Of a stretch of DNA of 33,100 nt, positions 824 through 17,590 are shown in pieces. The translations under genes and the position numbers were made by a program. The notes beneath the pieces were generated by a model. That model searched no databases. It was not told the DNA's origin and saw nothing but the letters and a program-made list of their open reading frames with translations. The stretch's first letter is position 1, and each line of letters begins with the position of its first letter. Source of the DNA: Chloroflexota bacterium (GTDB lineage: Bacteria > Chloroflexota > Limnocylindria > Limnocylindrales > CSP1-4); the NCBI GenBank assembly GCA_047519685.1, contig JAPVSP010000427.1, positions 1 to 33,100 on the forward strand. Direction: 5' to 3'.

Positions 824-1025
824 CGGCGCCGGGCCGGGGACGAATGGCGTCTCCCGGCTCGCCCGTGGACGGTCGCCGAGGGGGCGACCGCGATCGGCGA
901 TCCAGGGGATCCGCCGGCGCCCCCCGTCGTCCGGCCTCACGCGAGGGTCCTCGACGTCACTACCATGGGGCCAGCGCGCGGGAGCCCGCCCGCACGTCGA
1001 AGGGCGATCGAGAAGGGAGTCCCGG

Positions 1026-2033
1026 ATGGCAGCTCGCCTCGGTCTGGGTCTCGTCGGGGCGGGCCGGATGGGCTCGATCCACGCCCGGATCCTCGCCCAC
1101 GGCCTGCCCGAGGCCAGGCTGGTCGGGATCGCCGATGCCGATCTGGCCGCGGCTCGTCGCCTCGCGACCGAGGTCGACGTCGAGCTCGCCGTCGGCAGCG
1201 TCGAGGAGCTCGTGGCGGACCCCGCCGTCGACGCCGTCCTCGTCGCGACGTCCACGAGTCAGCACCTGGCGGTGGTCCGGGCGGCGGTCGAGGCCGGCAA
1301 GGACGTCCTGTGCGAGAAGCCGATCGCGCTCACCCTGGAGGAGACGAGCGCGGCCGTCGAGGCGGCCGAGCGGGCCGGCTGCCGGCTGCAGGTCGGGTTC
1401 ATGCGGCGCTGGGACGACGACTACCGGCGCGCGCGCGAGCGGATCGCGGCCGGCGCCATCGGGCGCCCGCTCCTCTTCAAGTCGCTCCAGCTCGACGCCG
1501 AGCTCCCCCCGCTCGCCTACTGCGACCCACGGGTGAGCGGCGGGATCATGGTCGACATGGGCATCCACGAGTTCGACCTGGCCCGCTGGATGGTCGGCGA
1601 CGAGGTCGCCGAGGTGCACGCCTTCGGGAGCTGGCTCGCCCACCCCGAGCTCGGCCCGCTGGGCGACGTCGACAACGCCGTGGTGAACCTCCGGTTCGCC
1701 GGAGGCGCCATCGGCAGCGTCGAGCTGAGCCGCACGGCCGCGTACGCGGAGGACGTCCGCACGGAAGTGATGGGCGACCGGGGAACGGTCTTCGTCGGGC
1801 TGCTGCCCACCGCGCCGAGCATCCTCGGGTCGGCGGCGGGGCTGGCCCACGACACGGTCCCCTCGTCGATGACCCGGTTCGCGCCGGCCTTCGCCGAGCA
1901 GGTCCGCGGGTTCGCCCGGGCGATCGTCGAGGACCGGCCGGTCGCGGTGGACGGGCGCGACGGCCGAGCCGCGCTGGCGATCGCCCTCGCCGCCGACCGC
2001 TCCCGTCGCGAAGGGCGTCCGATCGCGCTCTGA
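1026..2033 (+). CDS. Gfo/Idh/MocA-family NAD(P)-dependent oxidoreductase (inositol 2-dehydrogenase-like)
   Basis: 335 aa. N-terminal Rossmann motif GLVGAGRMG. Family-typical LCEKPIA (EKP) motif and GFMRRWD. RBS GAAGGGAG lies 6 nt before the ATG. High GC3. Confidence 0.9.
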   Translation: MAARLGLGLVGAGRMGSIHARILAHGLPEARLVGIADADLAAARRLATEVDVELAVGSVEELVADPAVDAVLVATSTSQHLAVVRAAVEAGKDVLCEKPIALTLEETSAAVEAAERAGCRLQVGFMRRWDDDYRRARERIAAGAIGRPLLFKSLQLDAELPPLAYCDPRVSGGIMVDMGIHEFDLARWMVGDEVAEVHAFGSWLAHPELGPLGDVDNAVVNLRFAGGAIGSVELSRTAAYAEDVRTEVMGDRGTVFVGLLPTAPSILGSAAGLAHDTVPSSMTRFAPAFAEQVRGFARAIVEDRPVAVDGRDGRAALAIALAADRSRREGRPIAL

Positions 2034-2065
2034 CCGGGCCCTGCCCTCAGCCGCGCGAGGTCGGG

Positions 2066-2090
2066 GCCGCCGGCCGCGGTCGCCGGCGGC
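2066..2090. terminator. Stem-loop between convergent genes (possible bidirectional terminator)
   Basis: GCCGCCGGC (2066-2074) / loop CGCGGTC / GCCGGCGGC (2082-2090), a perfect 9-bp stem. It lies between the stops at 2033 (+) and 2103 (-). No U-tract. Confidence 0.4.
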
Positions 2091-2102
2091 GGCCGCCGTC
2101 CG

Positions 2103-3026
2103 TCAGAGGCCCAGGCCGCGCAGGTACTCGCGGTTCCGGCGCTGGCTGTCGACGACCATGACGGACGTGTCGGCCGCACCGAGGAAGCGGTCCTGCTCGA
2201 CGACCAGCCAGCCGCGGTAGCCGTGCTCGCGAAGGGCGGCGACGACCTCGGCGATCCCCGAGTCGCCCTCGCCAAGGTCCGTGAAGACGCCGTTCGCCAC
2301 CGCCTCGGCGAACCCGTGCTCGGTCCGGCGGGCCGCCTCGAGGACCGTCCGGCTGCAGTCCTTGAGGTGGACGTGCCGGATCAGCTCGTGATAGGCGTGG
2401 ACCGACGCCGTGGGGTCGGCGCCGCCGAAGCGGAAGTGGCCGGTGTCCAGGCAGAGCCCGAGCAGCGAGGGATCGAGCCGCTCCATGACCCGCTCGATCT
2501 CGTCGGCCGTCTCGACGTACGTCCCGGCGTGCGGGTGGACGACGACCTCGAAGCCGGCCGCGCGACAGATCTCGGCCGCCCGATGGAGGTTCGACATCAG
2601 GACGCCGAGGCGGGCCGCGGGCAGCCACGCCTCCGGGTGCTCGGCGATCCGGCCCGACCAGGCCTGGCGGACCGGCTCGTCGAGGCCGTCGGCCAGGACG
2701 GCCAGCGGGCTCGACCCGTCGGGCGTCGCCTCGCGGAGCAGCGCGAGGCTGCGGCGCAGCCAGGCGCGATCCTCGTCGACGCATTCCGGGTGGCTGAGGC
2801 GTTGCGGCAGGAACGCCCCGACGAACCGCAGGCCGCGCGAGGCCAATCGCTCTCGGGTCGTCGGCCCGTCACCGAGATAGCCGGGCGGGCCGAGCTCGGT
2901 CCCGGCGTACTCGAGCTCGACCATCCAGTCGAGCATCTCGTCGGGATCGGGCGTCCAGGCGCCCGGCGGGAGCACCTCGTCGACCCCGAACGAGCAGGGC
3001 GCGTTCGCGACGGGCAGCGCGTCCAT
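2103..3026 (-). CDS. Xylose-isomerase-like TIM-barrel protein (sugar phosphate isomerase/epimerase family; IolE / MocC-like inosose dehydratase candidate)
   Basis: 307 aa. Motifs VVHPHAGTYVE, LCLDTGH and HVHLKD are typical of the AP_endonuc_2/IolE fold. Strong RBS GGGAGGAGGGG sits directly upstream of the ATG at 3026. Confidence 0.85.
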   Translation of the reverse strand: MDALPVANAPCSFGVDEVLPPGAWTPDPDEMLDWMVELEYAGTELGPPGYLGDGPTTRERLASRGLRFVGAFLPQRLSHPECVDEDRAWLRRSLALLREATPDGSSPLAVLADGLDEPVRQAWSGRIAEHPEAWLPAARLGVLMSNLHRAAEICRAAGFEVVVHPHAGTYVETADEIERVMERLDPSLLGLCLDTGHFRFGGADPTASVHAYHELIRHVHLKDCSRTVLEAARRTEHGFAEAVANGVFTDLGEGDSGIAEVVAALREHGYRGWLVVEQDRFLGAADTSVMVVDSQRRNREYLRGLGL

Positions 3027-3044
3027 CCCCTCCTCCCGGCCTGA

Positions 3045-3073
3045 CCCGCGGGCCGCCTGACGCGGCCGGCGGG
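3045..3073 (-). other. Intercistronic stem-loop abutting the stop codon of the Zn-ADH gene
   Basis: Plus strand reads CCCGCGGGCCGC (3045-3056) / loop CTGAC / GCGGCCGGCGGG (3062-3073), giving 11 of 12 positions paired. It sits between the ADH stop (3074) and the RBS of the next gene. It could be a partial terminator or an mRNA-stability element. Confidence 0.35.
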
Positions 3074-4078
3074 CTACGGCCTGATCACGACCTTGGTCGC
3101 CTCGCCGGACCTGATCCGGGCGATCCCTTCGGCGGTCCGCTCGAGGGGCAGGATCTCGCTCACGATCGGCCGGAGGTCGAGCTGGCCGCTCTCCACGAGG
3201 CGGATCGCCGACGGGAATGTGAAGTTCGAGATGTAGGAGCCGAGGACCGTCAGGCCCTTCCGCGTGATCTCCACCTGAGGGATCGCGGGCCGGGCGTTGT
3301 CGTTCATCCCGAACAGGACGATCCGGCCGGCCATCGCCGCCGCCTCGATGGCCTCCGCCAGCACGCTCCCGACGGCATCGACGACCACCGCTGCCCCATC
3401 CGGCAGCAGCGTCGATCGCCGGGTGGCGAACTCGGCGGGCGTCAGCACGACGTCGGCCCCGATCGCGCGAGCGACCGGCTGGCGATGAGGGCTCGGCTCG
3501 ACGACGACGACCGGGGTCGCGCCGGAGGCCTTCAGGACCGCCACGAAGAGGCAGCCGATCGCTCCCGCGCCGAAGACGACCGCCGATTCGCCCGGGCGCA
3601 GCGCCGCCCGGTTCGTGCCGTTCACGACGCAGGCGAGGGGCTCGACGAGCGCGGCGATCTCGGCCGGGACGTCGTCGGCGATCGGGTAGACGGAGGCGGC
3701 CGGCACGAGCACGTGGCGGGCAAGCCCTCCGTCACGGTAGACCCCGAGTGCGACGATCCGGCTGCAGCTGGCCGGCCGGCCGGCGCGGCAGGACTCGCAG
3801 CTCCCGCACTTCGGGTCCGGGTCGGCGACGACCCGACGGCCCACGGCCAGCCCGGGGACGGCCTCGCCGACGGCTGCGATGCGACCGACGAACTCGTGGC
3901 CGATGATCGTTCCCGGCGTGGCGGGATGGCCGGGCGGGACATCGAGGATGTGGACGTCGCTGCCGCAGATCCCGCACGCCTCGACCTCGATGAGCACCTC
4001 GTCCGGGGCGCCGAGCGTCGGCTCCGGCACCTCCCGGATCGCCAGCCGCCCCTCCCCCTCGAAGACCGCCGCGCGCAT
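3074..4078 (-). CDS. Zinc-binding medium-chain alcohol/polyol dehydrogenase (sorbitol/threonine-dehydrogenase-like)
   Basis: 334 aa starting MRAAVFEG. Catalytic Zn motif CGICGSDVH plus GHEFVG. Structural Zn cluster CGSCESCRAGRPASC. Rossmann motif VVFGAGAIG. RBS GGGAGGTG lies 8 nt upstream. The start ATG (4078-4076) overlaps the upstream TGA (TGATG). The track ORF to 4411 is an N-terminal over-extension. Confidence 0.9.
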   Translation of the reverse strand: MRAAVFEGEGRLAIREVPEPTLGAPDEVLIEVEACGICGSDVHILDVPPGHPATPGTIIGHEFVGRIAAVGEAVPGLAVGRRVVADPDPKCGSCESCRAGRPASCSRIVALGVYRDGGLARHVLVPAASVYPIADDVPAEIAALVEPLACVVNGTNRAALRPGESAVVFGAGAIGCLFVAVLKASGATPVVVVEPSPHRQPVARAIGADVVLTPAEFATRRSTLLPDGAAVVVDAVGSVLAEAIEAAAMAGRIVLFGMNDNARPAIPQVEITRKGLTVLGSYISNFTFPSAIRLVESGQLDLRPIVSEILPLERTAEGIARIRSGEATKVVIRP

Positions 4079-4944
4079 CACGCCTTCACCTCCCTGGGTT
4101 GGCGGTGCGGACGCAGGAGACGGCGGCCGCGGGTCAGGACGAGCGAGCCTAGGCCGAACACCCCGAGCGTCGCGAACAGGATGACCGTGGCGACCGCATT
4201 GACCTCGGGAGTGACCCCGAACTTGATCTGCGTGTAGATGAAGATCGGCAGGGTCAGCTGCGGGCCGATCGTGAAGTAGGTGATGACGAACTCGTCGATC
4301 GACAGCGTCACGCTCAGGAGGGCTCCGGCGACGATCGCCGGGGCGATGAGCGGCAGCACGATGTGCCGCAGGGTCGCGGGGCCGTCGGCCCCGAGGTCGG
4401 CGGCGGCCCACTCCAGCCGTCGATCGAAGCCCTGGAGCCGCGCCGCGACGATGAGCACGACGAACGGGGTCGTGAAGACGAGGTGCCCGGCGATGACCGT
4501 CATCAGGGACAGGTTCACGTCGGCGACCCGGTGGAAGAAGATCAGCAACCCGATCCCGAGCAGGACGCCCGGGATCATGATCGGCATCGTGAACAGCAGT
4601 CGCGCGGTCCCCGGCGCCGGGATGCCACCGCGGACGAGCGGGAAGGCCGCCATCGTCCCGATGATCGTGGCAAGGATGGCCACGGCCAGCGCGACGATCA
4701 CCGAGTTCAGGACGGCCGTCTGGATCGCGCTGTCGGACAGCATCTGCTGATACCAGTGCAGCGTCAGGCCGGTGATGGGAAGGCCGGGCGTCGACGCCTC
4801 CTCGAACGAGAACAGGATGAGGAACGCGATCGGCACGTACAGGAACACGAGGATGACCCCGGCGAGGATCTTGAGGAGCCAGCGCGTCTGCCGGGCGAAT
4901 GGACTGACCGGCATCGTCTCGAGCGGGCTGATCGTCCTAGCCAC
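4078..4944 (-). CDS. ABC transporter permease, PotC/PotI-like (spermidine/putrescine-type family)
   Basis: 288 aa with about 6 hydrophobic helices. EAA-loop region EWAAADLGADGPATLRHIVLPLIAPA. GTG start at 4944 overlaps the upstream stop by 8 nt; an alternative ATG exists at 4914. Confidence 0.85.
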   Translation of the reverse strand: MARTISPLETMPVSPFARQTRWLLKILAGVILVFLYVPIAFLILFSFEEASTPGLPITGLTLHWYQQMLSDSAIQTAVLNSVIVALAVAILATIIGTMAAFPLVRGGIPAPGTARLLFTMPIMIPGVLLGIGLLIFFHRVADVNLSLMTVIAGHLVFTTPFVVLIVAARLQGFDRRLEWAAADLGADGPATLRHIVLPLIAPAIVAGALLSVTLSIDEFVITYFTIGPQLTLPIFIYTQIKFGVTPEVNAVATVILFATLGVFGLGSLVLTRGRRLLRPHRQPREVKA

Positions 4945-5854
4945 GGGCCACCACGTCCTCGACCCGCAGGTACCGCCGGAAGACGATCAGGACCACCGTG
5001 ACGAAGGCCGCGATGACGATCGCCAGCGCCGCACCCTCCGGGATCTGGGCGCCCCTGAAGTAGTTCACCACCAGGTTCGCGATGAGGCTGCCCTGGGCCC
5101 CGCCGACCAGCGTGGGCGTCAGGAACTCGCCGAGGATGGGGATGAACACGAAGATGCAGGCGGTGATGATGCCGGCCCGGATCTGCGGCAGAAGGATGAA
5201 CCGGAACGCCTGGTCCGGTCGCGCCCCCAGGTCCTGTGCGGCGTTGAGCTGCGCGAAGTCGAACTTCTCGAGTGCCGCATACAGCGCGAGGGCGGCGAAT
5301 GGGAAGTACACGTAGACCAGGACGATGAACACGCCGAGGTCGTTGTAGACGAACAGGAGCGATGGCTGCTTGATCAATCCGATCGCCTGGAGGAGCTGAT
5401 TCAGCGCGCCGTGCTCGCCGAGGATCGCCTGCCACGCGTAGACCCGCAGCAGGTAGCTCGTCCAGAACGGCACGATGACGGCCAGCAGGATGACCCGCTG
5501 CCAGCGAGGGTTGACGTAGCGGACCAGGAAATAGGCGAACGGGAGAGCCGTGGCGAGACCGGTCAGGGTCACCGCGCTGGCCATGATCAGCGTCTTGGCG
5601 AACGTCCGCAGGTAGGTCGGGACGGTGAAGAACTTGACGTAGTTGTTCAGGTTCCAGACCTGCTCGATGTCGAAGTTCACGTTCGTCCGCCAGAAGCTGT
5701 AGACGAGCATGAACGCCATCGGGATCAGGAACAGGAAGAGGAGCAGCGCAAGACCCGGCAGGAACGGGGCGGCCCGTCCCAGCCGGTGTCGCGCGGAGCG
5801 CCGGGTATCCGCCAGCGGGGCTGCCTCAGCCCCGCTGGCGAGCACCGGGCCCAT
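4937..5854 (-). CDS. ABC transporter permease, PotB/PotH-like
   Basis: 305 aa from MGPVLASG. Multiple TM helices. EAA loop LNAAQDLGARPDQAFRFILLPQIRAG. The track ORF to 6691 runs through the upstream SBP gene in another frame, so the start is set at the first ATG after the SBP stop (5881). Confidence 0.85.
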   Translation of the reverse strand: MGPVLASGAEAAPLADTRRSARHRLGRAAPFLPGLALLLFLFLIPMAFMLVYSFWRTNVNFDIEQVWNLNNYVKFFTVPTYLRTFAKTLIMASAVTLTGLATALPFAYFLVRYVNPRWQRVILLAVIVPFWTSYLLRVYAWQAILGEHGALNQLLQAIGLIKQPSLLFVYNDLGVFIVLVYVYFPFAALALYAALEKFDFAQLNAAQDLGARPDQAFRFILLPQIRAGIITACIFVFIPILGEFLTPTLVGGAQGSLIANLVVNYFRGAQIPEGAALAIVIAAFVTVVLIVFRRYLRVEDVVARG

Positions 5855-5880
5855 CGGACCGAAGCCGTCCGGACGCTCGG

Positions 5881-8164: not shown

Positions 8165-8174
8165 GTCGCCCACG

Positions 8175-9266
8175 TCAGCGGCTCCCGGCGCCAACGGCGA
8201 CCCGGGCGAGGTCGGCCGGTCTCGCCCGACCATCGTCGCCGATCGTCCGCGTGCTCTCGCCCACGACGAGCTCGACCGGGAGGATCTGGCCGGGCGGGAG
8301 CTCCCCGGTGTGGATCGCCGCGACCAGCGACGCCGCGGCCAGGCGGCCCAGCTCGGCCGACGGGGTCGCCACCGTCGTCAGCCGCGGGTTGGAGATCGCC
8401 GCGAACGGGATCCCATCGAAGCCGACGATGCCCACGTCGCGCGGGACCGACACGCCGTGACGGCGCAACCCGTCGAGAAGGCCGAGGGCCAGCTTGTCGT
8501 CGTAGCAGATGAGCGCCTCGGGCAGGACGCGAACGATCGTCGCGGTCACTGCATCGGGCGCGCACCAGCCCTCGCGCCCGGCCTCGAACCGGCGCATCGG
8601 GTGGCGGATCCCCCGCGCGCGCAGGGCGCGCTCGGCCGCCTCGCGCCGGACGATGTCGGACGGCCGACCACTCCCACCGACATAGCCGATGTCGCGATAG
8701 CCGCGCTGGACGAGGTGATCGACCGCGGCCGCGACCCCGGCCTCGTCGTCGGTCCGGATGACCCCCGCCGGCACCACCCCGCCGCGACGCAGGAGGCTCC
8801 GATGATCGGGCTGGACGACGACCAGTCGATCCGGCCTCGTCCTCGCTCTGGCCTCCCGCGGATCGAGGACCGTCGACACCAGGGCCACGCCGTCGGTCCC
8901 GTGCTCGGTGAAGATCTTGAGCGCTCGTCGCTCGCGGACCGGGTCGTTGAAGCCCGCCACGAAGATGACGCGGTAACCGCGCTCGCCGGCGGCCTGCTCG
9001 AACCCGGCCGCGACCTGGCCGTGGACGGGGTCGCTGAGGTCCGCCAGGAGGAGTCCGAGGGTCCGCGTGCGGCGGACCCGCAGGCTGCGCGCAGCAGCGT
9101 TCGGGATGTAGCCCAGCTCGTCGGCCGCCGCCCGGATCGCGATCCGTGTGGGGGCGCTGATCCGGGGATCGTCGGCCAGAGCGCGCGAGGCCGTCGAACG
9201 GGACACCCCGGCGATGCGGGCGACGTCGTCGAGGGTCACTCGGCGGTGTGGATCGCGCGCGCCCAT
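8175..9266 (-). CDS. LacI/PurR-family transcriptional regulator
   Basis: N-terminal HTH VTLDDVARIAGVSRSTASRALADDPRISAPTRIAIRAAADELGYIPNAAARSLR, then a periplasmic-binding-protein-like sensor domain. I prefer ATG 9266 (RBS GAGGGA 7 nt upstream) over ATG 9281. Confidence 0.9.
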   Translation of the reverse strand: MGARDPHRRVTLDDVARIAGVSRSTASRALADDPRISAPTRIAIRAAADELGYIPNAAARSLRVRRTRTLGLLLADLSDPVHGQVAAGFEQAAGERGYRVIFVAGFNDPVRERRALKIFTEHGTDGVALVSTVLDPREARARTRPDRLVVVQPDHRSLLRRGGVVPAGVIRTDDEAGVAAAVDHLVQRGYRDIGYVGGSGRPSDIVRREAAERALRARGIRHPMRRFEAGREGWCAPDAVTATIVRVLPEALICYDDKLALGLLDGLRRHGVSVPRDVGIVGFDGIPFAAISNPRLTTVATPSAELGRLAAASLVAAIHTGELPPGQILPVELVVGESTRTIGDDGRARPADLARVAVGAGSR

Positions 9267-9290
9267 CGCCCGGTCCCTCATCCGCCGCAG

Positions 9291-10523
9291 CTACGCCAGG
9301 TACCGACTCGCGACCGCCCGGAACCGCTCGGCGCGGACCCGGGCGACGTCCGCTCCGTCGCGCATCCGCAGCCCGAACGGGGCGAGGTTCGGGTCGAGGA
9401 CGCCGATCGCGAAGCTCATCGAGCGCCCGAGCAGCCGGTCCGTGCCGGGCAGCATCCCCACCCGATACTCGGCCACCGAGTCGTCCGTGCACGGGCAGTC
9501 GAACGGGCAGCCCCGGCCGGTGATCGTCCGGCCCGCGAGGACGTGCTCCATGTGGGTGTAGACGTGCCAGCCGCTCGTGGCCAGGGTGATGGAGCCGAGC
9601 TCGGCGGTCACCGCGCTGGCGATCGAAGCATCGGGGAAGATGACCACCAGGTGGGTGGCCAGGTCCCCGGCCGGATCGGGCAGCGTCCGGAACCGGAGAC
9701 CGGGCAGGTCCCCGATCAACCCATGGACGAGGTCCCGGTTGGCCCGGAGGTGATCGCGGATCCGGTCGAGACGGCGCACCTGGGCGAGCAGGACGGCCCC
9801 CTCGAGCTCGGTCATCCGGAAGTTCAGCCCGAGGAACGGGCGCGCCCCGACCTCGATGCCCCGCCGGTTCGGGCTGTGGCCCTGGTCGTGCATCGCGAAG
9901 CAGCGGCGATAGAGCGCCTCGTCGTCGGTTACGAGGAGGCCACCGTCACCGCAGGTGATCGTCTTGAACTCGTTGAAGCTGTAGATGCCGGCGGCGCCGT
10001 GAGCGCCGACCCAGCGGCCGTCATAGGTCGCCCCGAACGCCTGGGCACAGTCCTCGATGAGCGCCAGCCCGTGGCGGTCGGCGATCGCTCGCAGCTCGGC
10101 GATGCGGGCCGGGTTGCCGAGCATGTGGACGGCGACGATGGCCCGCGTCCGCGGGGTGATCCGAGCCTCCACGTCGGCCGGATCGAGACCGAACGTCTCG
10201 TCGACCTCGGCCAGGACCGGCCGCGCGCGAGCGTAGACGACCGACGAGATGGTCGCGACGAACGTGAAACCAGGGACGATGACCTCGTCGCCGGGACCGA
10301 TGCCCAGCCCGACCAGGGCCAGGAACAGACCACTCGTCCCGGAGTTGAGGGCGAGGGCGTGGGAGACGCCGGCGAGCTCGGCAACGGTCTCCTCGAACCG
10401 GCGGACCTTGGCCGGGAAGCTCGAGTCGTCCGGGCCGTAGCGGCTGAGGTGCCCGCTCGCGAGGACCTCGGCGACCTCGGTCAGCTCCTCCGCGCCGACG
10501 AGGTCGAGACCCGGTCCCGGCAT
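9291..10523 (-). CDS. DegT/DnrJ/EryC1/StrS-family PLP-dependent aminotransferase (sugar / inosose aminotransferase type)
   Basis: 410 aa from MPGPGLDLVGAEEL. Family-typical NSGTSGL, VIVPGFTFVAT, IEDCAQAFG and PLP-lysine context SFNEFKTITCGDGG. RBS AGGAGG upstream of ATG 10523. The track ORF to 11015 is an over-extension into the divergent gene. Confidence 0.9.
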   Translation of the reverse strand: MPGPGLDLVGAEELTEVAEVLASGHLSRYGPDDSSFPAKVRRFEETVAELAGVSHALALNSGTSGLFLALVGLGIGPGDEVIVPGFTFVATISSVVYARARPVLAEVDETFGLDPADVEARITPRTRAIVAVHMLGNPARIAELRAIADRHGLALIEDCAQAFGATYDGRWVGAHGAAGIYSFNEFKTITCGDGGLLVTDDEALYRRCFAMHDQGHSPNRRGIEVGARPFLGLNFRMTELEGAVLLAQVRRLDRIRDHLRANRDLVHGLIGDLPGLRFRTLPDPAGDLATHLVVIFPDASIASAVTAELGSITLATSGWHVYTHMEHVLAGRTITGRGCPFDCPCTDDSVAEYRVGMLPGTDRLLGRSMSFAIGVLDPNLAPFGLRMRDGADVARVRAERFRAVASRYLA

Positions 10524-10539
10524 GACCCGCCCGCCCTCC

Positions 10540-10568
10540 TTGTGCAACCGATTGCACGACGGTAGCAT
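10540..10568 (+). promoter_or_regulatory. Candidate sigma-70/SigA-type promoter for the 865-aa protein gene
   Basis: TTGTGC (10540-10545), 17-nt spacer, TAGCAT (10563-10568). The operator palindrome lies inside the spacer. Hexamers matched by eye only. Confidence 0.3.
10542..10557. promoter_or_regulatory. LacI-family-type operator candidate (14/16 palindrome with central CG)
   Basis: GTGCAACCGATTGCAC has perfect 6-bp arms GTGCAA/TTGCAC. Its core TGCAACCGATTGCA fits the generic LacI/CcpA box pattern TGnAAnCGnTnnCA. It is the only such site I found in the window. It lies in the 85-bp divergent region between the aminotransferase-LacI operon and the 865-aa protein gene. Confidence 0.5.
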
Positions 10569-10588
10569 CCGGATTCGCACCGCGTCAA
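10559..10588 (-). promoter_or_regulatory. Candidate promoter for the aminotransferase-LacI-ABC operon
   Basis: On the minus strand: TTGACG (10588-10583), 18-nt spacer, TACCGT (10564-10559). The operator palindrome follows immediately, at about the +1 region. Confidence 0.3.
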
Positions 10589-10608
10589 TACCATTGGAGA
10601 CAGCGGGT

Positions 10609-13206
10609 TTGGTCGTCTCCCGCAGCACGCTCTCGACCCGCCGAGCCTGGCCGGTGGACCTGACGGCGGCCTGGAACGCCTCGGACGCCGACGTGGCCGC
10701 CCGCTTCCATCCGCTGTACCGGACGGCCCTCGGCCGGCTGCCCGAGGGCGACCAGGTCTTCCGGGGTCTGCCGTTCGCGCTCGGCCGGCGGGCGGCGGGC
10801 GCACGCTGGATCCTCGTCGACGAGACGCGCCGCATCGACCTGACTGGGTCGCCGCCGGCCAGCCACGTCGTGGTCGCCCACCTGTGCGACGCCAGGCACG
10901 ACGCCGGTGGCGGTCGGCCCGCCGGCGTGCCGCTCGGCTGGGTCGAGCCGGTCGGCGAGCCGCTCGCCCGGTACGAGCTGGTCACGGCCGATGGGCGTCG
11001 CCGGGCGACCACCATCCGGCGCCGGTTCGAGGTGAACGAGGGGATCCTCGGCTGGGGGTCCGGGGCGTTCCTGGCCGTCGGCCACCGGTTCGACGAGCCC
11101 CTCGACTGGCGCGGCCCGCACGAGCGACAGGTGCCCGGCCGCTACGCCCCTGCCGGTCACGCCGGCCCCCTGACGATCCTGCCTGGTGCATGGGGTCCGG
11201 GCCAGACGGGCGTCGCCGACTTCGTGCCCAGCCCCGCCGACGATGCGCTGCTCTGGCTGCACGCGATCGCCCTCGGCGAGCCGGCGCGCCTGACCGAGCT
11301 CCGCCTTCAGCCGCTCGGTCAGGGCGGGCCCGGGCGAGACATCCTCGTCGCCGGGATCGCGCTGTTCTCCGGGACGGCCGACCCGCTGGTCCTCGAGCCA
11401 CGTCGCCAGATCCTCGTGCGCGGCCTGGCCAGCCCGACGCCTCCCGAGACCGACCTGGGGGTGGTCATCCGGACGGCCATCGCGAGCGACCCCCCGGAGT
11501 CGCCGACGGAGCGGGCCATCGGCTGGGGCGCGAGCCGGCCCGACCGGACCTCAGCCAGGGTCGTGGACGCCGTCGTCGACGTCGCCCTCGCGCCCGATGC
11601 CTGTCTGCGCCTGGCCGACTGGGAGGTGCCGGCGGCGGCGATCGGCCCGGACCCTGTCCGTGGGCCCGGCGGGACGCCGACCGTCGAGGCGCTGCCCGCG
11701 CCCGAGATCCGGGTGGCGGTCACGGTGGTCGACGCGGGGACAGGCCGGCCGATCCCGACGCGGGTCCGGTTCGTCGCGGCCGACGGGCGGTACCTGCCGC
11801 CGGTCGGCCACCGCGACGAGGTCAACCCCGGGCTGTACGAGGACACCGGCGCCGACCTCGTCCTCGGCCGGGAGACCTACGCCTACGTCCCCGGCGCATT
11901 CGAGATCGACCTGCCCCTCGGCTCGGTCGAGGCCGAGGCCGTCCGCGGGTTCGACCATCGTCCCATCCGGACCCGTCTCGAGGTCGACCCCGCGACCCGC
12001 CACCTCGAGCTCGCGCTCGCCCGCCCGATCGACCGACGCCCGGACGGCTGGATGACGGCCGACTCGCACGTCCACTTCCTGGCACCGTCGACCGCCCTTC
12101 TCCAGGCCGCCGCCGAGGACCTCGCGATCGTCCATCTGCTGGCGACCCAGTGGGGTGATCACGCCACGAGCGTGACCGACCTGGCGTGGGGCTCGACCGT
12201 CGATCCGAGCGGCGAGCACCGCGTCGTGGTCGGGACGGAGAACCGCCAGAACCTGCTCGGGCACCTGGGTCTGCTCGGCGCCCGGCGCCCGGTCCTGCCG
12301 ATGGCCAGCGGTGGGCCGCCGGAGGGCAGGATCGGCGGCGCCCTGGTCGAGCTGCTCGCCGACTGGGCCGATCGCTGCCACGAGGCCGAGGGCCTGGTCG
12401 TCGCCGCCCACTTCCCGCTGCCGTACGCGGAGGTGGCCGCCGACATCGTCGCCGGCAAGATCGACGCGGTCGAGATGCAGTGCTTCTCGCCCGGCCTCGA
12501 CCACCCCTCGATCCTCGAGTGGTACCGGTTCCTCGACTGCGGCTACCGGCTGCCCGTCCTCGGGGGGACGGACAAGATGTCGGCCGAGGTCCCGGCGGGG
12601 GCCGTTCGGACGTACGCCCGGCTCCAGCCGGGGGAGCCGGCCTCCTTCGAGGCGTGGGCCGCCGCGGTCCGCGCGGGCCGGACGTTCGCGACATCCGGAC
12701 CCTTCCTCGAGCTGTCCGTCGAGGGCCACGAGCCCGGCGGCGTCATCGCCCTGCCCGCCACGGGCGGGCGGCTCGGGGTCCAGGCCGCTGCCCGCGCGGC
12801 CCAGCCGATGATCACGGCGATCGAGCTGGTGGTGAACGGGCAGGTCGTCGCGGAGGAGGCGTCCGCCCGGGCGACCGATGCGCTCGACGTCTCCACGGCG
12901 ATCGAGGTCCGAGCGGGCAGCTGGATCGCGGCCCGGGCACGGAGCGACCGCCAGATCGAGTCGGCGTTCGCGACGAGCATGGCCGCGCACACCTCGCCGG
13001 TCTACGTCGAGGTCGTCGACCGCCCGCTGTTCGTCGCCGACGAGGCCGGGCCGATCCTGGAGGTAATCGAGGGGGCGCGACGCTGGGTGGCGTCGATGGC
13101 GGCGGTCGAGCGGCCGGCCGACCGTCGGCGGATGGTCGAGTTCCTGGCGGCCAGCGCGGCGACGTTCCGCGCTCGGCTGGATCGTGCGAAGCGGGAGGTG
13201 GACTGA
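10609..13206 (+). CDS. Large multidomain protein: unrecognised N-terminal region (~360 aa), beta-sandwich (carboxypeptidase-regulatory-like) segment, and a C-terminal metal-dependent hydrolase-like domain (PHP / CehA-McbA / amidohydrolase-like)
   Basis: Continuous high-GC3 frame of 894 codons in the track. I place the start at TTG 10609 (RBS GGAGA 8 nt upstream), because ATG 10522 would overlap the divergent gene's start codon. A GTG at 10654 is an alternative. Segment RVAVTVVDAGTGRPIPTRVRFVAADGRY begins at nt ~11701. Metal-site-like pattern: DSHVHF (12061-12078), GHLGLLG, VVAAHFPLPY, GGTDKMS (D at 12571). The N-terminal part has no motif I can name. Confidence 0.8.
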   Translation: MVVSRSTLSTRRAWPVDLTAAWNASDADVAARFHPLYRTALGRLPEGDQVFRGLPFALGRRAAGARWILVDETRRIDLTGSPPASHVVVAHLCDARHDAGGGRPAGVPLGWVEPVGEPLARYELVTADGRRRATTIRRRFEVNEGILGWGSGAFLAVGHRFDEPLDWRGPHERQVPGRYAPAGHAGPLTILPGAWGPGQTGVADFVPSPADDALLWLHAIALGEPARLTELRLQPLGQGGPGRDILVAGIALFSGTADPLVLEPRRQILVRGLASPTPPETDLGVVIRTAIASDPPESPTERAIGWGASRPDRTSARVVDAVVDVALAPDACLRLADWEVPAAAIGPDPVRGPGGTPTVEALPAPEIRVAVTVVDAGTGRPIPTRVRFVAADGRYLPPVGHRDEVNPGLYEDTGADLVLGRETYAYVPGAFEIDLPLGSVEAEAVRGFDHRPIRTRLEVDPATRHLELALARPIDRRPDGWMTADSHVHFLAPSTALLQAAAEDLAIVHLLATQWGDHATSVTDLAWGSTVDPSGEHRVVVGTENRQNLLGHLGLLGARRPVLPMASGGPPEGRIGGALVELLADWADRCHEAEGLVVAAHFPLPYAEVAADIVAGKIDAVEMQCFSPGLDHPSILEWYRFLDCGYRLPVLGGTDKMSAEVPAGAVRTYARLQPGEPASFEAWAAAVRAGRTFATSGPFLELSVEGHEPGGVIALPATGGRLGVQAAARAAQPMITAIELVVNGQVVAEEASARATDALDVSTAIEVRAGSWIAARARSDRQIESAFATSMAAHTSPVYVEVVDRPLFVADEAGPILEVIEGARRWVASMAAVERPADRRRMVEFLAASAATFRARLDRAKREVD

Positions 13207-13207
13207 C

Positions 13208-14080
13208 GTGAAGATCGCGCTCGACCCCTACATGCTCCGGGGTCTCCCGTTCGGGGAGGTCTGCCGGATCGCCGCCGACGTCGGCTACCGCTACATCGAG
13301 CTCTCGCCGCGGACCGACTTCATCCCGTTCTTCGTCCATCCGCGAGCCGATCGGTCGCGGATCGCCCACTTCCGGACGGCGCTCCGCGAGACCGGGATGG
13401 AGCTCTCGTCGATCCTGCCGCTCTATCGCTGGTCGAGCCCCGACGAGGACGAGCGGCTGGCCGCGGTCGGCTACTGGAGGCGGGCCATCCAGCTCGCCGT
13501 CGAGCTCGGCTGCCAGACGATGAACTCGGAGCTCAGCGGACGACCCGATCAGGCGGCCCGCTCCGAGGCCCAGTTCTGGCGGTCGCTCGACGAGCTCCTG
13601 CCGATCTTCGAGCGCGAGGGGATCGTCCTCGACCTCGAGCCCCACCCCGACGACTTCGTCGAGCTCAACGATCCGGCCGTGGACCTCGTCCGGGGCATCG
13701 ATTCGCCGAGCGTTCGCTACGTCTTCTGTGCGCCGCACACGTTCCACCTCGGCGGCGAGGTCGGGGCGATGATCCGCTACGCCGCGCCGGTCCTCGCGCA
13801 CGTCCACCTCGCCGACGTGTTCGATCACCGCGCCTCGTCCGGCCTCCGCTACATCGTCAATCCGCCCGGCTCGACGGCCCGGGTCCACCAGCACCTCGAC
13901 ATCGGTCAGGGCGAGGTCGACTGGGACGCGCTGTTCGCTGCGCTCGCCGAGATCCGCTTCGACGGGATCCTGACGAGCTGCGTCTTCGCCTGGGAGGAGC
14001 GCGCCGTCGATTCGGCGAGGTTCATGCTCGAGGAGATCCAGCGGCGCCTGTCGAAGGCCGCCGCAGCGGGCCAGGTCTAG
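13208..14080 (+). CDS. Xylose-isomerase-like TIM-barrel protein (sugar phosphate isomerase/epimerase family), second copy of the fold in this locus
   Basis: 290 aa from GTG 13208, which is 1 nt after the upstream TGA. RBS GGGAGGTGG overlaps the end of the upstream gene. Motifs YIELSPR, LDLEPHPDDFV, HVHLADV, HLDIGQGEVDW. Confidence 0.85.
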   Translation: MKIALDPYMLRGLPFGEVCRIAADVGYRYIELSPRTDFIPFFVHPRADRSRIAHFRTALRETGMELSSILPLYRWSSPDEDERLAAVGYWRRAIQLAVELGCQTMNSELSGRPDQAARSEAQFWRSLDELLPIFEREGIVLDLEPHPDDFVELNDPAVDLVRGIDSPSVRYVFCAPHTFHLGGEVGAMIRYAAPVLAHVHLADVFDHRASSGLRYIVNPPGSTARVHQHLDIGQGEVDWDALFAALAEIRFDGILTSCVFAWEERAVDSARFMLEEIQRRLSKAAAAGQV

Positions 14081-17566: not shown

Positions 17567-17590
17567 CTGTCCGTGGCGCCAGCGGACGGG

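What the first reader, a model, noticed from the sequence alone, without database searches (positions are those of the whole stretch)
1026..14080. LacI-associated catabolic locus combining moc/iol-like enzymes, an inosose-type aminotransferase and a polyamine-type ABC importer
The minus-strand operon (10523 to 2103) encodes, in order: a DegT/StrS-family aminotransferase, a LacI regulator, PotA-, PotD-, PotB- and PotC-like transporter parts, a Zn polyol dehydrogenase, and an IolE/MocC-like TIM barrel. A Gfo/Idh/MocA oxidoreductase converges on the operon. A second TIM-barrel isomerase plus an 865-aa hydrolase-like protein diverge from it.

Several family links point toward amino-cyclitols. Gfo/Idh/MocA and the IolE-like MocC take their names from inositol and rhizopine (inosamine) catabolism. 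DegT/StsC-type enzymes interconvert scyllo-inosose and scyllo-inosamine. PotD-type SBPs recognise protonated amines rather than neutral sugars.

The combination suggests uptake and deamination of an amino-cyclitol, amino-polyol or amino-sugar-like compound, followed by dehydrogenation and dehydration. The canonical iolB/C/D/J genes are absent, so this is not a standard inositol pathway. I do not recognise it as a described one.
Basis: partly seen in the sequence, partly recalled or inferred. Interest (0 to 1): 0.65.

Follow-up and report, generated by a model that had tools for sequence, protein, structure and literature searches.

The report
Likely amino-cyclitol catabolic gene cluster
This is a repressor-controlled gene set in an uncultured soil bacterium (Chloroflexota, Limnocylindria) that most likely imports an amine-bearing inositol-type compound, removes the amino group and passes the ring to ordinary inositol breakdown; the exact substrate and the job of one large, structurally unknown enzyme remain open.

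Summary
All eleven genes are at the stated coordinates with the stated family assignments, and the palindrome at 10543-10556 is a real LacI-type operator.

The window comes from a high-GC Limnocylindria (Chloroflexota) genome. Across about 60 related loci, four parts stay together:
- the 865-aa metallohydrolase (G10)
- its TIM-barrel partner (G11)
- the DegT aminotransferase (G9)
- the LacI repressor (G8)

The same operator lies upstream of both G9 and G10. The transporter varies: Pot-type ABC here, EamA elsewhere.

In sister genomes the same operons carry bona fide IolD and IolB, plus an IolC-like kinase just under its cut-off and an IolJ-like aldolase.

G9 is closest to KdnA, which acts on a free sugar, not to the inosose enzymes StsC/BtrS. 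The binding protein has a PotD fold. By alignment it keeps three acidic amine-binding positions, and several other PotD contact residues, three of them aromatic, are changed.

An amino-cyclitol, or an amine-bearing inositol conjugate, is the only substrate class that explains both G9 and the iol genes. This is inference only. G10 has no Pfam or PDB relative, and its reaction is unknown.

I found no published description. Rating: new variant of a known kind, moderate interest.

The parts
1026..2033 (+). G1: IolG-like Gfo/Idh/MocA inositol-type dehydrogenase, convergent on the operon
   Evidence: PF01408, PF22725 and PF02894 hit. TIGR04380 (IolG) scores 333.6 bits against a 355 cut-off. Best PDB match is 3ezy from Thermotoga at 224 bits, followed by inositol dehydrogenases. 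Homologues at 54-60% identity lie in related loci.
2103..3026 (-). G2: distant IolE-like TIM barrel, the probable inosose-type dehydratase and last gene of the operon
   Evidence: PF01261 hits. TIGR04379 (IolE) scores 153.6 against 290. PDB IolE entries 9zmu and 3cny score 88 and 85 bits. Homologues at 54-70% identity occupy the same position in L007, L014, L017, L048 and L050.
3074..4078 (-). G3: Zn-dependent polyol/cyclitol dehydrogenase (MDR family)
   Evidence: ADH_N and ADH_zinc_N hit. The best NCBIfam match is IolM at 214.8 against 450, so it is not an equivalog. PDB matches are generic Zn-ADH and threonine dehydrogenase entries. Its start overlaps the G4 stop by 1 nt. It is present in 11 of 31 long loci.
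4078..4944 (-). G4: PotC-like ABC permease
   Evidence: BPD_transp_1 hits. The PotC model scores 193.7 against 326.
4937..5854 (-). G5: PotB-like ABC permease
   Evidence: BPD_transp_1 hits. The PotB model scores 169.2 against 348.
5881..7101 (-). G6: substrate-binding lipoprotein with a PotD/PotF fold and a remodelled pocket. The alternative start at 7056 gives 391 aa.
   Evidence: SBP_bac_6 plus a TAT signal hit, and the sequence has an AAAC lipobox. The PotD model scores only 44 against 582. The AF2 model has pLDDT 79, and the Foldseek best hits are PotD/PotF at TM 0.87 and about 20% identity. The contact-residue comparison with E. coli PotD is.
7040..8233 (-). G7: PotA-like ABC ATPase with a TOBE_2 domain. 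The alternative start is at 8164.
   Evidence: ABC_tran and TOBE_2 hit. The PotA model scores 371 against 482, and TIGR01187 scores 350.9 against 355.6.
8175..9281 (-). G8: LacI-family repressor of the regulon
   Evidence: The LacI HTH and Peripla_BP_3 domains hit. Homologues at 47-66% identity are present in 20 of 31 long loci, including those with a different transporter.
9291..10523 (-). G9: KdnA-like DegT-family PLP aminotransferase, first gene of the operon
   Evidence: PF01041 scores 282 bits. The best PDB match is 5k8b (KdnA) at 256.5 bits over residues 4-373, with the Lys motif FKTITCGDGG conserved. Homologues at 62-90% identity occur across Limnocylindria MAGs.
10543..10556 (.). LacI-type palindromic operator TGCAACCGATTGCA in the 85-bp divergent intergenic region. 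It lies 20 bp upstream of G9 and 53 bp upstream of G10.
   Evidence: It is the only match in the window. It keeps the same position relative to G9 and/or G10 in about 35 related loci. Loci where inserted genes separate the two operons have two copies.
10609..13206 (+). G10: 865-aa cytoplasmic multidomain metallohydrolase of the CehA/McbA family, reaction unknown
   Evidence: Pfam finds nothing even at E = 5. NF038032 scores 148 against 80 over residues 480-801. PDB sequence and profile searches find nothing. The AF2 model has pLDDT 78 and several domains, and Foldseek matched only beta-sandwich domains. Invariant D485, H487, H489, E544, H552, H601, D655 and H794 are consistent with a metal site, which is my reading. 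No signal peptide is evident by eye.
13184..14080 (+). G11: xylose-isomerase-like TIM barrel, always paired with G10. Isomerase, epimerase or dehydratase; specificity unknown.
   Evidence: PF01261 scores 171.5 bits. There is no NCBIfam equivalog; the L-Ru5P 3-epimerase and IolO models give only 26-32 bits. It is the most conserved partner, at 73-81% identity in most loci.
14077..15075 (-). G12: F420-dependent LLM oxidoreductase, a possible accessory member
   Evidence: TIGR03560 scores 241 against 231.4. In L058 and L009 it lies next to G1, on the same strand as G10-G11-G1. It is present in 9 of 31 long loci. Membership is uncertain.

Best explanation
The locus is a LacI-repressed catabolic regulon of a Limnocylindria bacterium. 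It takes up an amine-bearing cyclitol and converts it into an intermediate of the classical inositol pathway. Candidate substrates are an inosamine-type compound, a (di)aminocyclitol, or an inositol conjugate that carries a free amine.

Proposed steps. Only the gene content, co-conservation and shared operator are shown; every reaction is inferred.
1. The lipoprotein G6 binds the compound and the PotA/B/C-like ABC system imports it. By alignment G6 keeps three acidic PotD amine-binding positions. Several other PotD contact residues, three of them aromatic, are changed, mostly to polar side chains.
2. The cytoplasmic metallohydrolase G10, with its TIM-barrel partner G11, pre-processes the compound. 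G10 might hydrolyse an acyl, carbamoyl, amidino or phospho substituent. G11 might then isomerise or dehydrate the product.
3. The KdnA-like aminotransferase G9 exchanges C-NH2 for C=O and gives an inosose.
4. The Zn-ADH G3 and the IolG-like G1 adjust oxidation state and stereochemistry. For a diamine, G3 would reduce the first keto group so that G9 can act a second time. This mirrors 2-deoxystreptamine or streptamine biosynthesis run backwards.
5. The IolE-like G2 dehydrates the inosose.
6. IolD, IolB, IolC and an IolJ-type aldolase finish the job. These are encoded in the same operon in sister genomes and presumably elsewhere in this genome.
7. G8 binds the operator at 10543-10556, which lies between the divergent G9 and G10 operons, and is released by the substrate or an intermediate.
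For: - Gene identities and operon structure are confirmed.
- G10, G11, G9 and G8 recur together across Limnocylindria MAGs while the transporter changes: Pot-type ABC in L007, L014, L017, L050 and L058, EamA in L068 and L069.
- Bona fide iol genes sit in the same operons. IolD scores 873-881 bits against a 715 cut-off and IolB scores 238-266 against 205. An IolC-like kinase scores 268 against 300, and a DeoC/LacD aldolase is also present. IolD lies within 10 kb of the G9 homologue in 18 of 31 long loci.
- The same operator precedes both G9 and G10 in about 35 loci. In L063 one copy lies between G10 and IolD.
- The best solved relative of G9, KdnA, acts on a free sugar and not on an NDP-sugar.
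- G6 aligned to PotD retains W34, E36 (as D74), E171 (E209), W255 and D257 (D299). The changes are S83 to D120, Y37 to H75, D168 to Q206, W229 to N270, Y293 to R335 and Y85 to L122. All of these are invariant or nearly so in the family.
- A full-length G10 relative in Mesorhizobium AR10 lies beside a Pot-type ABC system, a DAO-type FAD oxidoreductase and a glutamine-synthetase-family gene, which is an amine-catabolism setting.
- DegT-family enzymes do interconvert scyllo-inosose and scyllo-inosamine; MosB is an example (PMC6668481).
Against: - No substrate has been tested, so every reaction is inferred from family membership and context.
- G9 is nearer to KdnA, which makes a terminal CH2-NH2 on a sugar acid, than to StsC/BtrS.
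- G2 and G3 score far below the IolE and IolM cut-offs.
- The window itself has no IolD, IolB, IolC or IolJ.
- The PotD-like fold also binds opines and sugar phosphates. The invariant R335 could indicate an anionic group.
- The residue mapping rests on a profile alignment at about 20% identity, not on a superposition.
- G9 homologues at 70-77% identity also occur without the cluster: with DUF4432 and a Peripla_BP_4 protein in L002/L003, and in unrelated settings in L018.
- A simple inosamine would need only G9, so the role of the G10/G11 pair is unexplained.
- No abundant environmental aminocyclitol is an obvious candidate substrate.
Confidence: 0.5

Rival explanations
1. The substrate is an amino sugar, amino-polyol or amino sugar acid with a terminal amine. 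G9 works as KdnA does in reverse, turning CH2-NH2 into CHO. G3 then reduces or oxidises the aldehyde. The TIM barrels isomerise the resulting sugar. The link to inositol genes in relatives would be incidental clustering of carbohydrate operons.
For: KdnA is by far the best solved relative of G9, at 256 bits against 189 or less for the others. G3 resembles generic polyol and threonine dehydrogenases. R335 in the G6 pocket could bind a carboxylate. L017 carries an SMP30/lactonase-like gene, a 2-hydroxyacid dehydrogenase and an SDR between G10 and G9; this family reading is from the translated ORFs by eye, and NCBIfam found nothing for the first of them.
Against: It does not explain why IolD, IolB and the IolC-like kinase lie inside the same operons and behind the same operator in many genomes. 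It also does not explain the IolG-like and IolE-like genes in the window.
Confidence: 0.15
2. The substrate is a non-amine inositol derivative, such as an inositol stereoisomer, inositol phosphate, glycerophosphoinositol or methyl-inositol. G10 acts as a PHP-type phosphoesterase and the PotD-like protein binds a phospho-sugar, as AfuA does. G9 has a side role, such as salvage or detoxification of an inosose.
For: The iol genes dominate the sister operons. AfuA-type sugar-phosphate binders share the G6 fold. R335 is invariant in G6. The invariant His/Asp/Glu set in G10 would suit a phosphoesterase-type metal centre, which is my reading. A P450 that could act as a demethylase lies next to the GFO gene in L069.
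Against: G9 is the most conserved and best-positioned gene of the regulon. It is the first gene after the operator here and lies between IolD and the IolC-like gene in L068 and L069. That position is hard to reconcile with a side role. G6 keeps the acidic PotD positions D74, E209 and D299 and adds D120, which suits a cation and not a phosphate.
Confidence: 0.15
3. The locus is a biosynthetic cluster that makes an aminocyclitol as a signal, compatible solute or antibiotic precursor. It would use IolG-type oxidation followed by DegT amination, as in rhizopine (IolG plus MosB) or streptidine synthesis.
For: IolG plus a DegT enzyme is sufficient to make scyllo-inosamine (PMC6668481). The plasmid-borne homologues of G9 lie in biosynthetic settings.
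Against: The locus has an ABC importer with a binding protein, a LacI repressor and operator, and catabolic IolD, IolB and IolC-like genes in the same operons. It has no glycosyltransferase, kinase or amidinotransferase tailoring genes and no exporter in the window.
Confidence: 0.05
4. An ordinary spermidine/putrescine importer happens to lie beside unrelated sugar enzymes.
For: Automated names call the binding protein 'spermidine/putrescine-binding protein'. The PotA, PotB and PotC models are the best NCBIfam hits.
Against: The PotD model scores 44 bits against a 582 cut-off. Roughly half of the twelve PotD contact positions compared are replaced. The gene order G9-G8-G7-G6-G5-G4-G3-G2 is conserved, with overlapping genes and a shared operator, in many species.
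Confidence: 0.03

Closest known systems
Classical (Bacillus subtilis-type) myo-inositol catabolism: IolG, IolE, IolD, IolB, IolC, IolJ, IolA
   Same: The window has an IolG-like dehydrogenase (334 bits against 355) and a distant IolE-like TIM barrel. Orthologous operons in sister genomes carry bona fide IolD and IolB, plus an IolC-like kinase and an aldolase.
   Different: The window has no IolD, IolB, IolC or IolJ. The locus adds a DegT aminotransferase, a Zn-ADH, an 865-aa metallohydrolase, a second TIM barrel and a PotD-type importer, and the regulator is LacI-type. IolR as the canonical regulator is my own knowledge. Several sister operons lack a canonical IolE and carry a split transketolase.
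Rhizopine (scyllo-inosamine / 3-O-methyl-scyllo-inosamine) loci mocCABRDEF and mosB of Sinorhizobium meliloti L5-30
   Same: This is the only described bacterial system for using an inosamine as a carbon and nitrogen source. MocA is Gfo/Idh/MocA-type and MocC is IolE-like (own knowledge). MosB is a DegT-type scyllo-inosose:glutamate aminotransferase (PMC6668481).
   Different: From my own knowledge, and not tested here: moc uses a sugar-type binding protein (MocB), a MocR-type regulator and an oxygenase (MocDEF), and has no catabolic aminotransferase. The present locus has a PotD-type binding protein, a LacI regulator, no oxygenase, and the G10/G11 pair. The organism is a Chloroflexota, not a rhizobium. 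MosB could not be compared directly.
Aminotransferase plus Zn-dehydrogenase pair of 2-deoxystreptamine/streptamine biosynthesis (BtrS/NeoB-type aminotransferase with NeoA-type dehydrogenase; own knowledge)
   Same: Both have a DegT-family aminotransferase and an MDR Zn-dehydrogenase encoded together. Run in reverse, the pair would strip two amines from a diaminocyclitol and yield an inosose.
   Different: G9 scores lower against 2-deoxy-inosose aminotransferases (174 and 137 bits) than against KdnA (256 bits). G3 could not be compared with NeoA. The setting is catabolic (importer, repressor, iol genes), and there is no cyclase or glycosyltransferase.
KdnA, the 8-amino-3,8-dideoxy-D-manno-octulosonate transaminase of Shewanella oneidensis (PDB 5k8b)
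   Same: It is the best solved relative of G9. The alignment covers residues 4-373, the PLP-lysine motif is conserved, and KdnA acts on a free sugar and not on a nucleotide sugar.
   Different: KdnA is biosynthetic, serving the LPS core, and is paired with an Fe-ADH-type oxidase (KdnB); both points are my own knowledge. G9 lies in a catabolic operon with a Zn-ADH and inositol-pathway genes.
PotABCD / PotFGHI polyamine ABC importers
   Same: The subunit set is the same (ATPase with TOBE domain, two permeases, one binding protein). G6 has the PotD/PotF fold at TM 0.87. The acidic positions equivalent to E36, E171 and D257 and the tryptophans W34 and W255 are retained.
   Different: All four subunits score below the equivalog cut-offs, and PotD scores 44 against 582. 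Y37, S83, Y85, D168, W229 and Y293 are replaced by H, D, L, Q, N and R. The genes are embedded in a sugar/cyclitol operon under a LacI repressor.
CehA/McbA carbaryl hydrolases
   Same: G10 passes the NCBIfam domain model NF038032 at 148 bits against 80.
   Different: Identity to the real McbA and CehA genes is only about 26%, over residues 420-802. G10 shows no signal peptide by eye and has an extra N-terminal region of about 360 aa. Its setting is amine and cyclitol catabolism, not pesticide degradation.
Thermotoga maritima oxidative inositol pathway (IolG, IolM, IolN, IolO)
   Same: The best PDB hit for G1 is 3ezy, which I recall as the Thermotoga IolG (TM0414). The best NCBIfam hit for G3 is IolM. 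G2 and G11 give faint IolO hits.
   Different: IolM scores 215 against 450 and IolO scores 22-26 against 300. No IolN (creatininase-family, NF041098) homologue was found among the window proteins scanned.

Membership tests
Classical iol (myo-inositol) catabolic operon | IolG, inositol 2-dehydrogenase | tested here: inconclusive
   G1 scores 333.6 bits on TIGR04380 against a 355 cut-off. Its top PDB hits are inositol dehydrogenases.
Classical iol (myo-inositol) catabolic operon | IolE, myo-inosose-2 dehydratase | tested here: not met
   G2 scores 153.6 bits on TIGR04379 against a 290 cut-off. It is a distant relative only.
Classical iol (myo-inositol) catabolic operon | IolD, IolB, IolC and IolJ encoded in the locus | tested here: not met
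   They were not found among the genes called and scanned in the 33.1-kb window. In orthologous loci L063 and L069, IolD (873-881 against 715) and IolB (238-266 against 205) are present, with an IolC-like kinase (268 against 300) in L069.
Rhizopine moc catabolic locus | MocA-type Gfo/Idh/MocA dehydrogenase and MocC-type IolE-like protein | tested here: inconclusive
   The families are present as G1 and G2. No MocA or MocC sequence was available for a direct comparison.
Rhizopine moc catabolic locus | MocB sugar-type binding protein, MocR regulator and MocDEF oxygenase | tested here: not met
   The binding protein is PotD-type (SBP_bac_6) and the regulator is LacI-family. No oxygenase or ferredoxin gene lies in the locus. 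The moc composition is taken from PMC6668481 and my own knowledge.
PotABCD spermidine/putrescine importer | The binding protein is an equivalog of PotD or PotF | tested here: not met
   The PotD model scores 44 bits against 582 and the PotF model 37 against 636.
PotABCD spermidine/putrescine importer | Conserved polyamine-contact residues (PotD W34, T35, E36, Y37, S83, Y85, D168, E171, W229, W255, D257, Y293) | tested here: not met
   W34, E36 (as D), E171, W255 and D257 are kept and T35 becomes S. Y37, S83, Y85, D168, W229 and Y293 become H, D, L, Q, N and R. This comes from a profile alignment at about 20% identity.
PotABCD spermidine/putrescine importer | PotA/PotB/PotC-type ATPase and permeases | tested here: inconclusive
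   These are the best hits, but all fall below their cut-offs: PotA 371 against 482, TIGR01187 350.9 against 355.6, PotB 169 against 348, PotC 194 against 326.
DegT/DnrJ/EryC1/StrS aminotransferases, inosose-specific clade (StsC/BtrS/MosB) | DegT fold with the PLP lysine | tested here: met
   PF01041 scores 282 bits. The lysine motif aligns with that of KdnA.
DegT/DnrJ/EryC1/StrS aminotransferases, inosose-specific clade (StsC/BtrS/MosB) | Closest characterised relatives are inosose aminotransferases | tested here: not met
   KdnA scores 256 bits and perosamine synthetase 189. The 2-deoxy-inosose aminotransferases score 174 and 137, and the scyllo-inositol aminotransferase 7b0d scores 143. MosB was not available and no tree was built.
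CehA/McbA family metallohydrolases | Passes the NF038032 domain model | tested here: met
   148 bits against an 80 cut-off, over residues 480-801.
CehA/McbA family metallohydrolases | Carbamate-ester (carbaryl) hydrolase activity | not testable with these tools
   Identity to the McbA and CehA genes is only about 26%, so the activity cannot be transferred.
Thermotoga-type oxidative inositol pathway | IolM, IolN and IolO equivalogs | tested here: not met
   IolM scores 215 against 450 and IolO scores 22-26 against 300. No protein of the locus hits IolN (NF041098).
LacI/GalR repressor-operator unit | LacI-family protein plus a palindromic operator with a central CG next to the regulated genes | tested here: met
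   G8 has the LacI HTH and Peripla_BP_3 domains. The operator TGCAACCGATTGCA is unique in the window and keeps its position in about 35 loci. Binding itself was not tested.

The most novel reading that the evidence does not exclude
G10, G11, G9 and G8 form a previously undescribed feeder module. It channels amine-bearing cyclitols into inositol catabolism in an abundant, uncultured soil class. Candidate substrates are inosamines, aminoglycoside-derived streptamine, streptidine or 2-deoxystreptamine, and amine-bearing inositol conjugates such as glucosaminyl-inositol. On this reading G10 founds a new, structurally uncharacterised family of large cytoplasmic metallohydrolases that act on amine conjugates. 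The family has about 520 clusters at 50% identity with E <= 1e-30. The PotD scaffold would have been re-tooled for a hydroxylated amine.
Probability: 0.3. Interest if true: 0.7.

Novelty: new variant of a known kind. Interest (0 to 1): 0.5.

Why it matters
If the reading is right, this would be the first genetically defined route for aminocyclitol use outside the rhizobial rhizopine system. It would sit in Limnocylindria, a widespread soil and freshwater lineage with almost no cultured members.

It would give a testable function to three things:
- a large protein family with no Pfam domain and no solved relative
- a PotD-like binding protein with a re-tooled pocket
- a KdnA-like aminotransferase working in catabolism

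It could also bear on the turnover in soil of aminoglycoside-type compounds or of inositol-amine conjugates.

If the substrate turns out to be an ordinary amino sugar or an inositol derivative, the locus is one more uncharacterised carbohydrate operon.

Tried and rejected
- PDB sequence and profile searches with G10 found nothing. Pfam at E = 5 found nothing. Foldseek with the full-length AF2 model matched only generic beta-sandwich domains at TM 0.1. The fold of the catalytic domain could not be assigned beyond the NCBIfam domain hit.
- A tblastn search of G9 against annotated plasmids gave homologues of 47% identity or less. The two regions inspected (H2, H9) are polysaccharide or natural-product biosynthetic settings. 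This says nothing useful about catabolism.
- G9 relatives outside Chloroflexota were uninformative. L051 (Syntrophomonadaceae, 50% identity) lies with a GH63-like hydrolase, an MFS_2 transporter, a creatininase-family protein and a DhnA-type aldolase. The creatininase hits IolN only weakly, at 41 bits against 245. L018 (sponge symbiont, 71% identity) lies among unrelated genes.
- The idea of a Thermotoga-type pathway (IolG-IolM-IolN-IolO) was considered and rejected, because there is no IolN homologue and the IolM and IolO scores are far below cut-off.
- I considered that a split transketolase replaces IolC/IolJ. This was weakened when transketolase was found together with IolC-like and DeoC-type genes in L029, L035, L046 and L054.
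- Consensus sigma-70 promoter and intrinsic terminator scans found nothing in 900-15600. The inverted-repeat tool also missed the operator.
- Literature searches found no description of this gene combination. The topics covered were inosamine catabolism, aminoglycoside or 2-deoxystreptamine degradation, transketolase in inositol catabolism, Limnocylindria with inositol, and IolM/N/O. The Thermotoga pathway paper could not be retrieved.

Full report
**1. What is in the window**

Pfam and NCBIfam confirm each assignment.

| Gene | Coordinates | Assignment | Key score |
|---|---|---|---|
| G1 | 1026-2033 (+) | Gfo/Idh/MocA dehydrogenase | IolG model 333.6 vs cut-off 355 |
| G2 | 2103-3026 (-) | AP_endonuc_2 TIM barrel | IolE model 153.6 vs 290 |
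| G3 | 3074-4078 (-) | Zn-ADH | best hit IolM, 214.8 vs 450 |
| G4 | 4078-4944 (-) | PotC-like permease | 193.7 vs 326 |
| G5 | 4937-5854 (-) | PotB-like permease | 169.2 vs 348 |
| G6 | 5881-7101 (-) | SBP_bac_6 binding protein, TAT signal, lipobox | PotD model 44 vs 582 |
| G7 | 7040-8233 (-) | PotA-like ATPase | 371 vs 482 |
| G8 | 8175-9281 (-) | LacI regulator | LacI HTH + Peripla_BP_3 |
| G9 | 9291-10523 (-) | DegT aminotransferase | PF01041, 282 bits |
| G10 | 10609-13206 (+) | 865 aa, no Pfam hit | CehA/McbA domain 148 vs 80, residues 480-801 |
| G11 | 13184-14080 (+) | AP_endonuc_2 TIM barrel | 171 bits |
| G12 | 14077-15075 (-) | F420-dependent LLM oxidoreductase | 241 vs 231 |

Short overlaps and gaps between G9 and G2 fit a single transcript. 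The rest of the window holds an unrelated second catabolic locus, AsnA and an S8 protease. It holds no IolB, IolC, IolD or IolJ.

**2. Regulator and operator**

The 85-bp region between the divergent G9 and G10 starts contains GTGCAACCGATTGCAC. Its core, TGCAAnCGnTTGCA, is the only such site in the window; 0.24 are expected with up to two mismatches.

In related loci the same motif, allowing one mismatch, lies 27-58 bp upstream of G9 homologues and 52-95 bp upstream of G10 homologues, in about 35 loci. Where other genes separate the two operons (L009, L017, L058/L063) there are two copies, one per operon. This is strong comparative evidence that one LacI-type regulator controls both operons. 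Binding itself was not tested.

**3. Origin and conservation**

G9 homologues of 62-90% identity are all from Chloroflexota or Candidatus Limnocylindrales/Limnocylindria metagenome-assembled genomes. A tblastn matrix of the window's proteins against 58 G9-centred loci, each from a different GTDB species representative, shows the following.

- Gene order G10(-G11) <> G9-G8-G7-G6-G5-G4-G3-G2 is conserved in L007, L014, L017 and L050, with variants in L015, L021, L048 and L058.
- Among 31 loci of at least 17 kb:
 - 20 keep the LacI homologue and 18 keep G10
 - 15 keep G11 and 15 keep PotA
 - 11 keep G6 and 11 keep G3

Some G9 homologues at 70-77% identity lie in other settings. L002/L003 have DUF4432 and a Peripla_BP_4 binding protein, and L018 has unrelated neighbours. 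The aminotransferase family is therefore broader than the locus.

**4. The decisive context: inositol genes**

- In L063 (G9 at 80% identity) the operon reads IolD, split transketolase, IolB, G9, G8, Pot-type ABC, G3. IolD scores 872.6 against 715 and IolB scores 238.5 against 205. A second IolD (774 bits), an HpcH/GarL-type aldolase, a 2-hydroxyacid dehydrogenase and an aldehyde dehydrogenase lie alongside.
- Look-ups centred on G10 (L068, L069) show G10-G11 diverging from a second arrangement: IolD (881 bits), G9 homologue (65-67% identity), IolC-like kinase (268 against 300), IolB (266 against 205), DeoC/LacD aldolase, EamA permease, a third TIM barrel, the LacI homologue (61% identity) and a split transketolase.
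- IolD lies within 10 kb of the G9 homologue in 18 of 31 long loci.

The invariant kernel is thus G10, G11, G9 and G8. The transporter is interchangeable, and the module is wired into the classical inositol pathway. The lower pathway genes simply lie outside this window.

**5. The individual proteins**

*G9.* Its best solved relative is KdnA (5k8b), at 256.5 bits over residues 4-373 with the PLP-lysine motif conserved. KdnA is ahead of perosamine synthetases (189), 2-deoxy-inosose aminotransferases (174 and 137), a scyllo-inositol aminotransferase (143) and NtdA (109). KdnA acts on a free sugar, which fits a non-nucleotide substrate. G9 is not a member of the StsC/BtrS clade by this measure. 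MosB could not be compared.

*G6.* The AF2 model (pLDDT 79) matches PotD and PotF best, at TM 0.87 and about 20% identity. The same fold includes MotA (mannopine and DFG) and AfuA (sugar phosphates). A family-profile alignment to E. coli PotD gives this mapping:

| PotD residue | G6 residue |
|---|---|
| W34 | W72 |
| T35 | S73 |
| E36 | D74 |
| Y37 | H75 |
| S83 | D120 |
| Y85 | L122 |
| D168 | Q206 |
| E171 | E209 |
| W229 | N270 |
| W255 | W297 |
| D257 | D299 |
| Y293 | R335 |

All of these positions are invariant or nearly so in the G6 family. Three acidic clamps and two tryptophans are kept. Several other contacts, three of them aromatic, are changed, mostly to polar side chains. This suits a hydroxylated amine better than an aliphatic polyamine. 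It remains an alignment-based inference.

*G10.* It has no Pfam hit even at E = 5, and no PDB relative by sequence or profile. The AF2 model (pLDDT 78) shows an N-terminal beta-rich region, an Ig-like domain, a barrel that carries the invariant D485, H487, H489, E544, H552, H601, D655 and H794, a beta-sandwich, and C-terminal helices. The domain labels are my reading of the secondary-structure output. Foldseek was uninformative.

The family is sizeable: 518 clusters at 50% identity with E <= 1e-30. Many members are full length, and there are shorter forms that cover only residues from about 369 to 850. True carbaryl hydrolases are only about 26% identical.

Full-length relatives at 33% identity exist in two cultured rhizobia:
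- In Mesorhizobium AR10 the gene lies beside a Pot-type ABC system, a DAO-type oxidoreductase and a glutamine-synthetase-family gene, which is an amine-catabolism setting.
- In Bradyrhizobium sp. 4 it lies beside an MFS transporter and a divergent LacI gene.

Many Limnocylindria loci carry a second G10 paralogue directly divergent from the Pot genes. G10 therefore probably acts on the imported compound. Its chemistry is unknown.

*G11.* It is the most conserved partner, at 73-81% identity in most loci, and it has no equivalog.

*G1, G2 and G3.* G1 groups with inositol dehydrogenases. G2 is a distant IolE relative. G3 is a generic MDR polyol dehydrogenase.

**6. Most likely mechanism**

An amine-bearing cyclitol, or an inositol conjugate with a free amine, is the only substrate class that explains both the conserved, operator-proximal aminotransferase and the embedded iol genes. 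The proposed sequence is:

1. Import by G6 and the PotA/B/C-like system.
2. Pre-processing by G10 and G11.
3. Transamination by G9 to an inosose.
4. Redox and stereochemical adjustment by G3 and G1. For a diaminocyclitol, G3 would allow a second round of transamination. This is the reverse of 2-deoxystreptamine or streptamine biosynthesis (own knowledge).
5. Dehydration by G2.
6. Completion by IolD, IolB, IolC and an aldolase encoded elsewhere in the genome.

What is shown: gene content, synteny, co-conservation and the shared operator. What is inferred: every reaction and the substrate. I put 0.5 on this reading.

The rivals are:
- an amino sugar, amino-polyol or amino sugar acid with a terminal amine (0.15), which does not explain the iol genes
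- a non-amine inositol derivative, with G10 as a phosphoesterase (0.15), which does not explain G9 or the acidic pocket
- biosynthesis of an aminocyclitol (0.05), which conflicts with the importer, the repressor and the catabolic iol genes
- a chance polyamine importer (0.03), which the synteny and the PotD score contradict

**7. Comparison with known systems and novelty**

The nearest described systems are the classical iol operon and the rhizobial rhizopine moc/mos loci (PMC6668481). The present locus differs from both in five respects: the transporter type, the regulator, the catabolic use of a KdnA-like DegT enzyme, the Zn-ADH, and the G10/G11 pair. It also fails the membership tests for the Thermotoga IolG/M/N/O route, for PotABCD proper, and for the StsC/BtrS aminotransferase clade.

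Eight full-text literature searches found no description of this combination. I rate it a new variant of a known kind, with interest 0.5. It is well conserved in an uncultured but widespread class and contains a truly uncharacterised enzyme family. It is still a predicted catabolic cluster with an unknown substrate.

Noticed in passing
L063:7202-9069; also L008, L009, L016, L029, L030, L035, L046, L053, L054, L069: A split transketolase (N-terminal part of about 296 aa, C-terminal part of about 326 aa) is a regular member of these inositol-type operons. In L063 it lies between IolD and IolB; in L069 it follows the LacI gene. It co-occurs with the IolC-like kinase and the DeoC-type aldolase in several loci, so it is probably an addition and not a replacement. 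Its role in an inositol-type pathway is unexplained, and no paper was found.
   Followed up: partly
window 16616-28853: A second, unrelated catabolic locus. It holds an NMT1/THI5-like binding protein (17591-18913, -), an ABC ATPase (19635-20708, -), a class III aminotransferase (21489-22835, -), a CN hydrolase (23167-24024, +), an LLM oxidoreductase (24073-25116, +), an amidohydrolase (25450-27138, +), an ABM monooxygenase (27139-27627, +) and an Fe-ADH (27624-28853, +). It looks like a route for a nitrogen heterocycle or a pyrimidine/beta-amino-acid type compound.
   Followed up: no
window 15374-16528 (+): An AsnA-type aspartate-ammonia ligase (PF03590, 272 bits) lies just beyond the locus.
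   Followed up: no
L036, L041, L044 (about 9000-15300): A paralogous DegT gene (66-68% identity to G9) has its own copy of the operator. It is followed by three or four tandem Gfo/Idh/MocA genes and preceded by a TIM barrel 32-34% identical to G2. This cluster lies a few kb from the Pot-type operon in the same genomes and may be a second module for other (amino)cyclitol stereoisomers.
   Followed up: partly
L002 and L003, 8863-12377 (L012, L013, L024 and L025 carry the same 77% DegT without the cluster genes): DegT homologues at 77% identity to G9 sit in a different setting, between a DUF4432 protein and a Peripla_BP_4 sugar-type binding protein. No G10, G11 or Pot genes are present. The aminotransferase family has therefore been recruited to more than one uptake system.
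   Followed up: partly
L037, L042, L045, L055, L056, L057: There are two paralogues of the 865-aa metallohydrolase per locus. One is paired with G11 next to IolD and DegT. The other is directly divergent from the PotA and binding-protein genes. Each is preceded by a variant of the operator (TGCAATCGGTTGCG or TACAAACGGTTGCA).
   Followed up: partly
L068:15178-15729 and L069:13561-14736: A cytochrome P450 gene lies next to the IolG-like dehydrogenase, just downstream of G11. It could O-demethylate methyl-inositols or methyl-inosamines, by analogy with MocDEF. This was not examined.
   Followed up: no
L017:3456-6260: In the CSP1-4 genome three genes are inserted between G10 and G9, flanked by two operator copies. 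From the translated ORFs read by eye, they look like an SMP30/gluconolactonase-like protein, a D-2-hydroxyacid dehydrogenase and an SDR. Only the first was scanned, and NCBIfam found nothing. This hints at a sugar-acid side branch.
   Followed up: no
window 1-459 (+) and 30584-33100 (-): The window edges carry the 3' end of an NHL-repeat beta-propeller protein and a large S8 subtilase with PA and fn3_6 domains. Neither is related to the locus.
   Followed up: no
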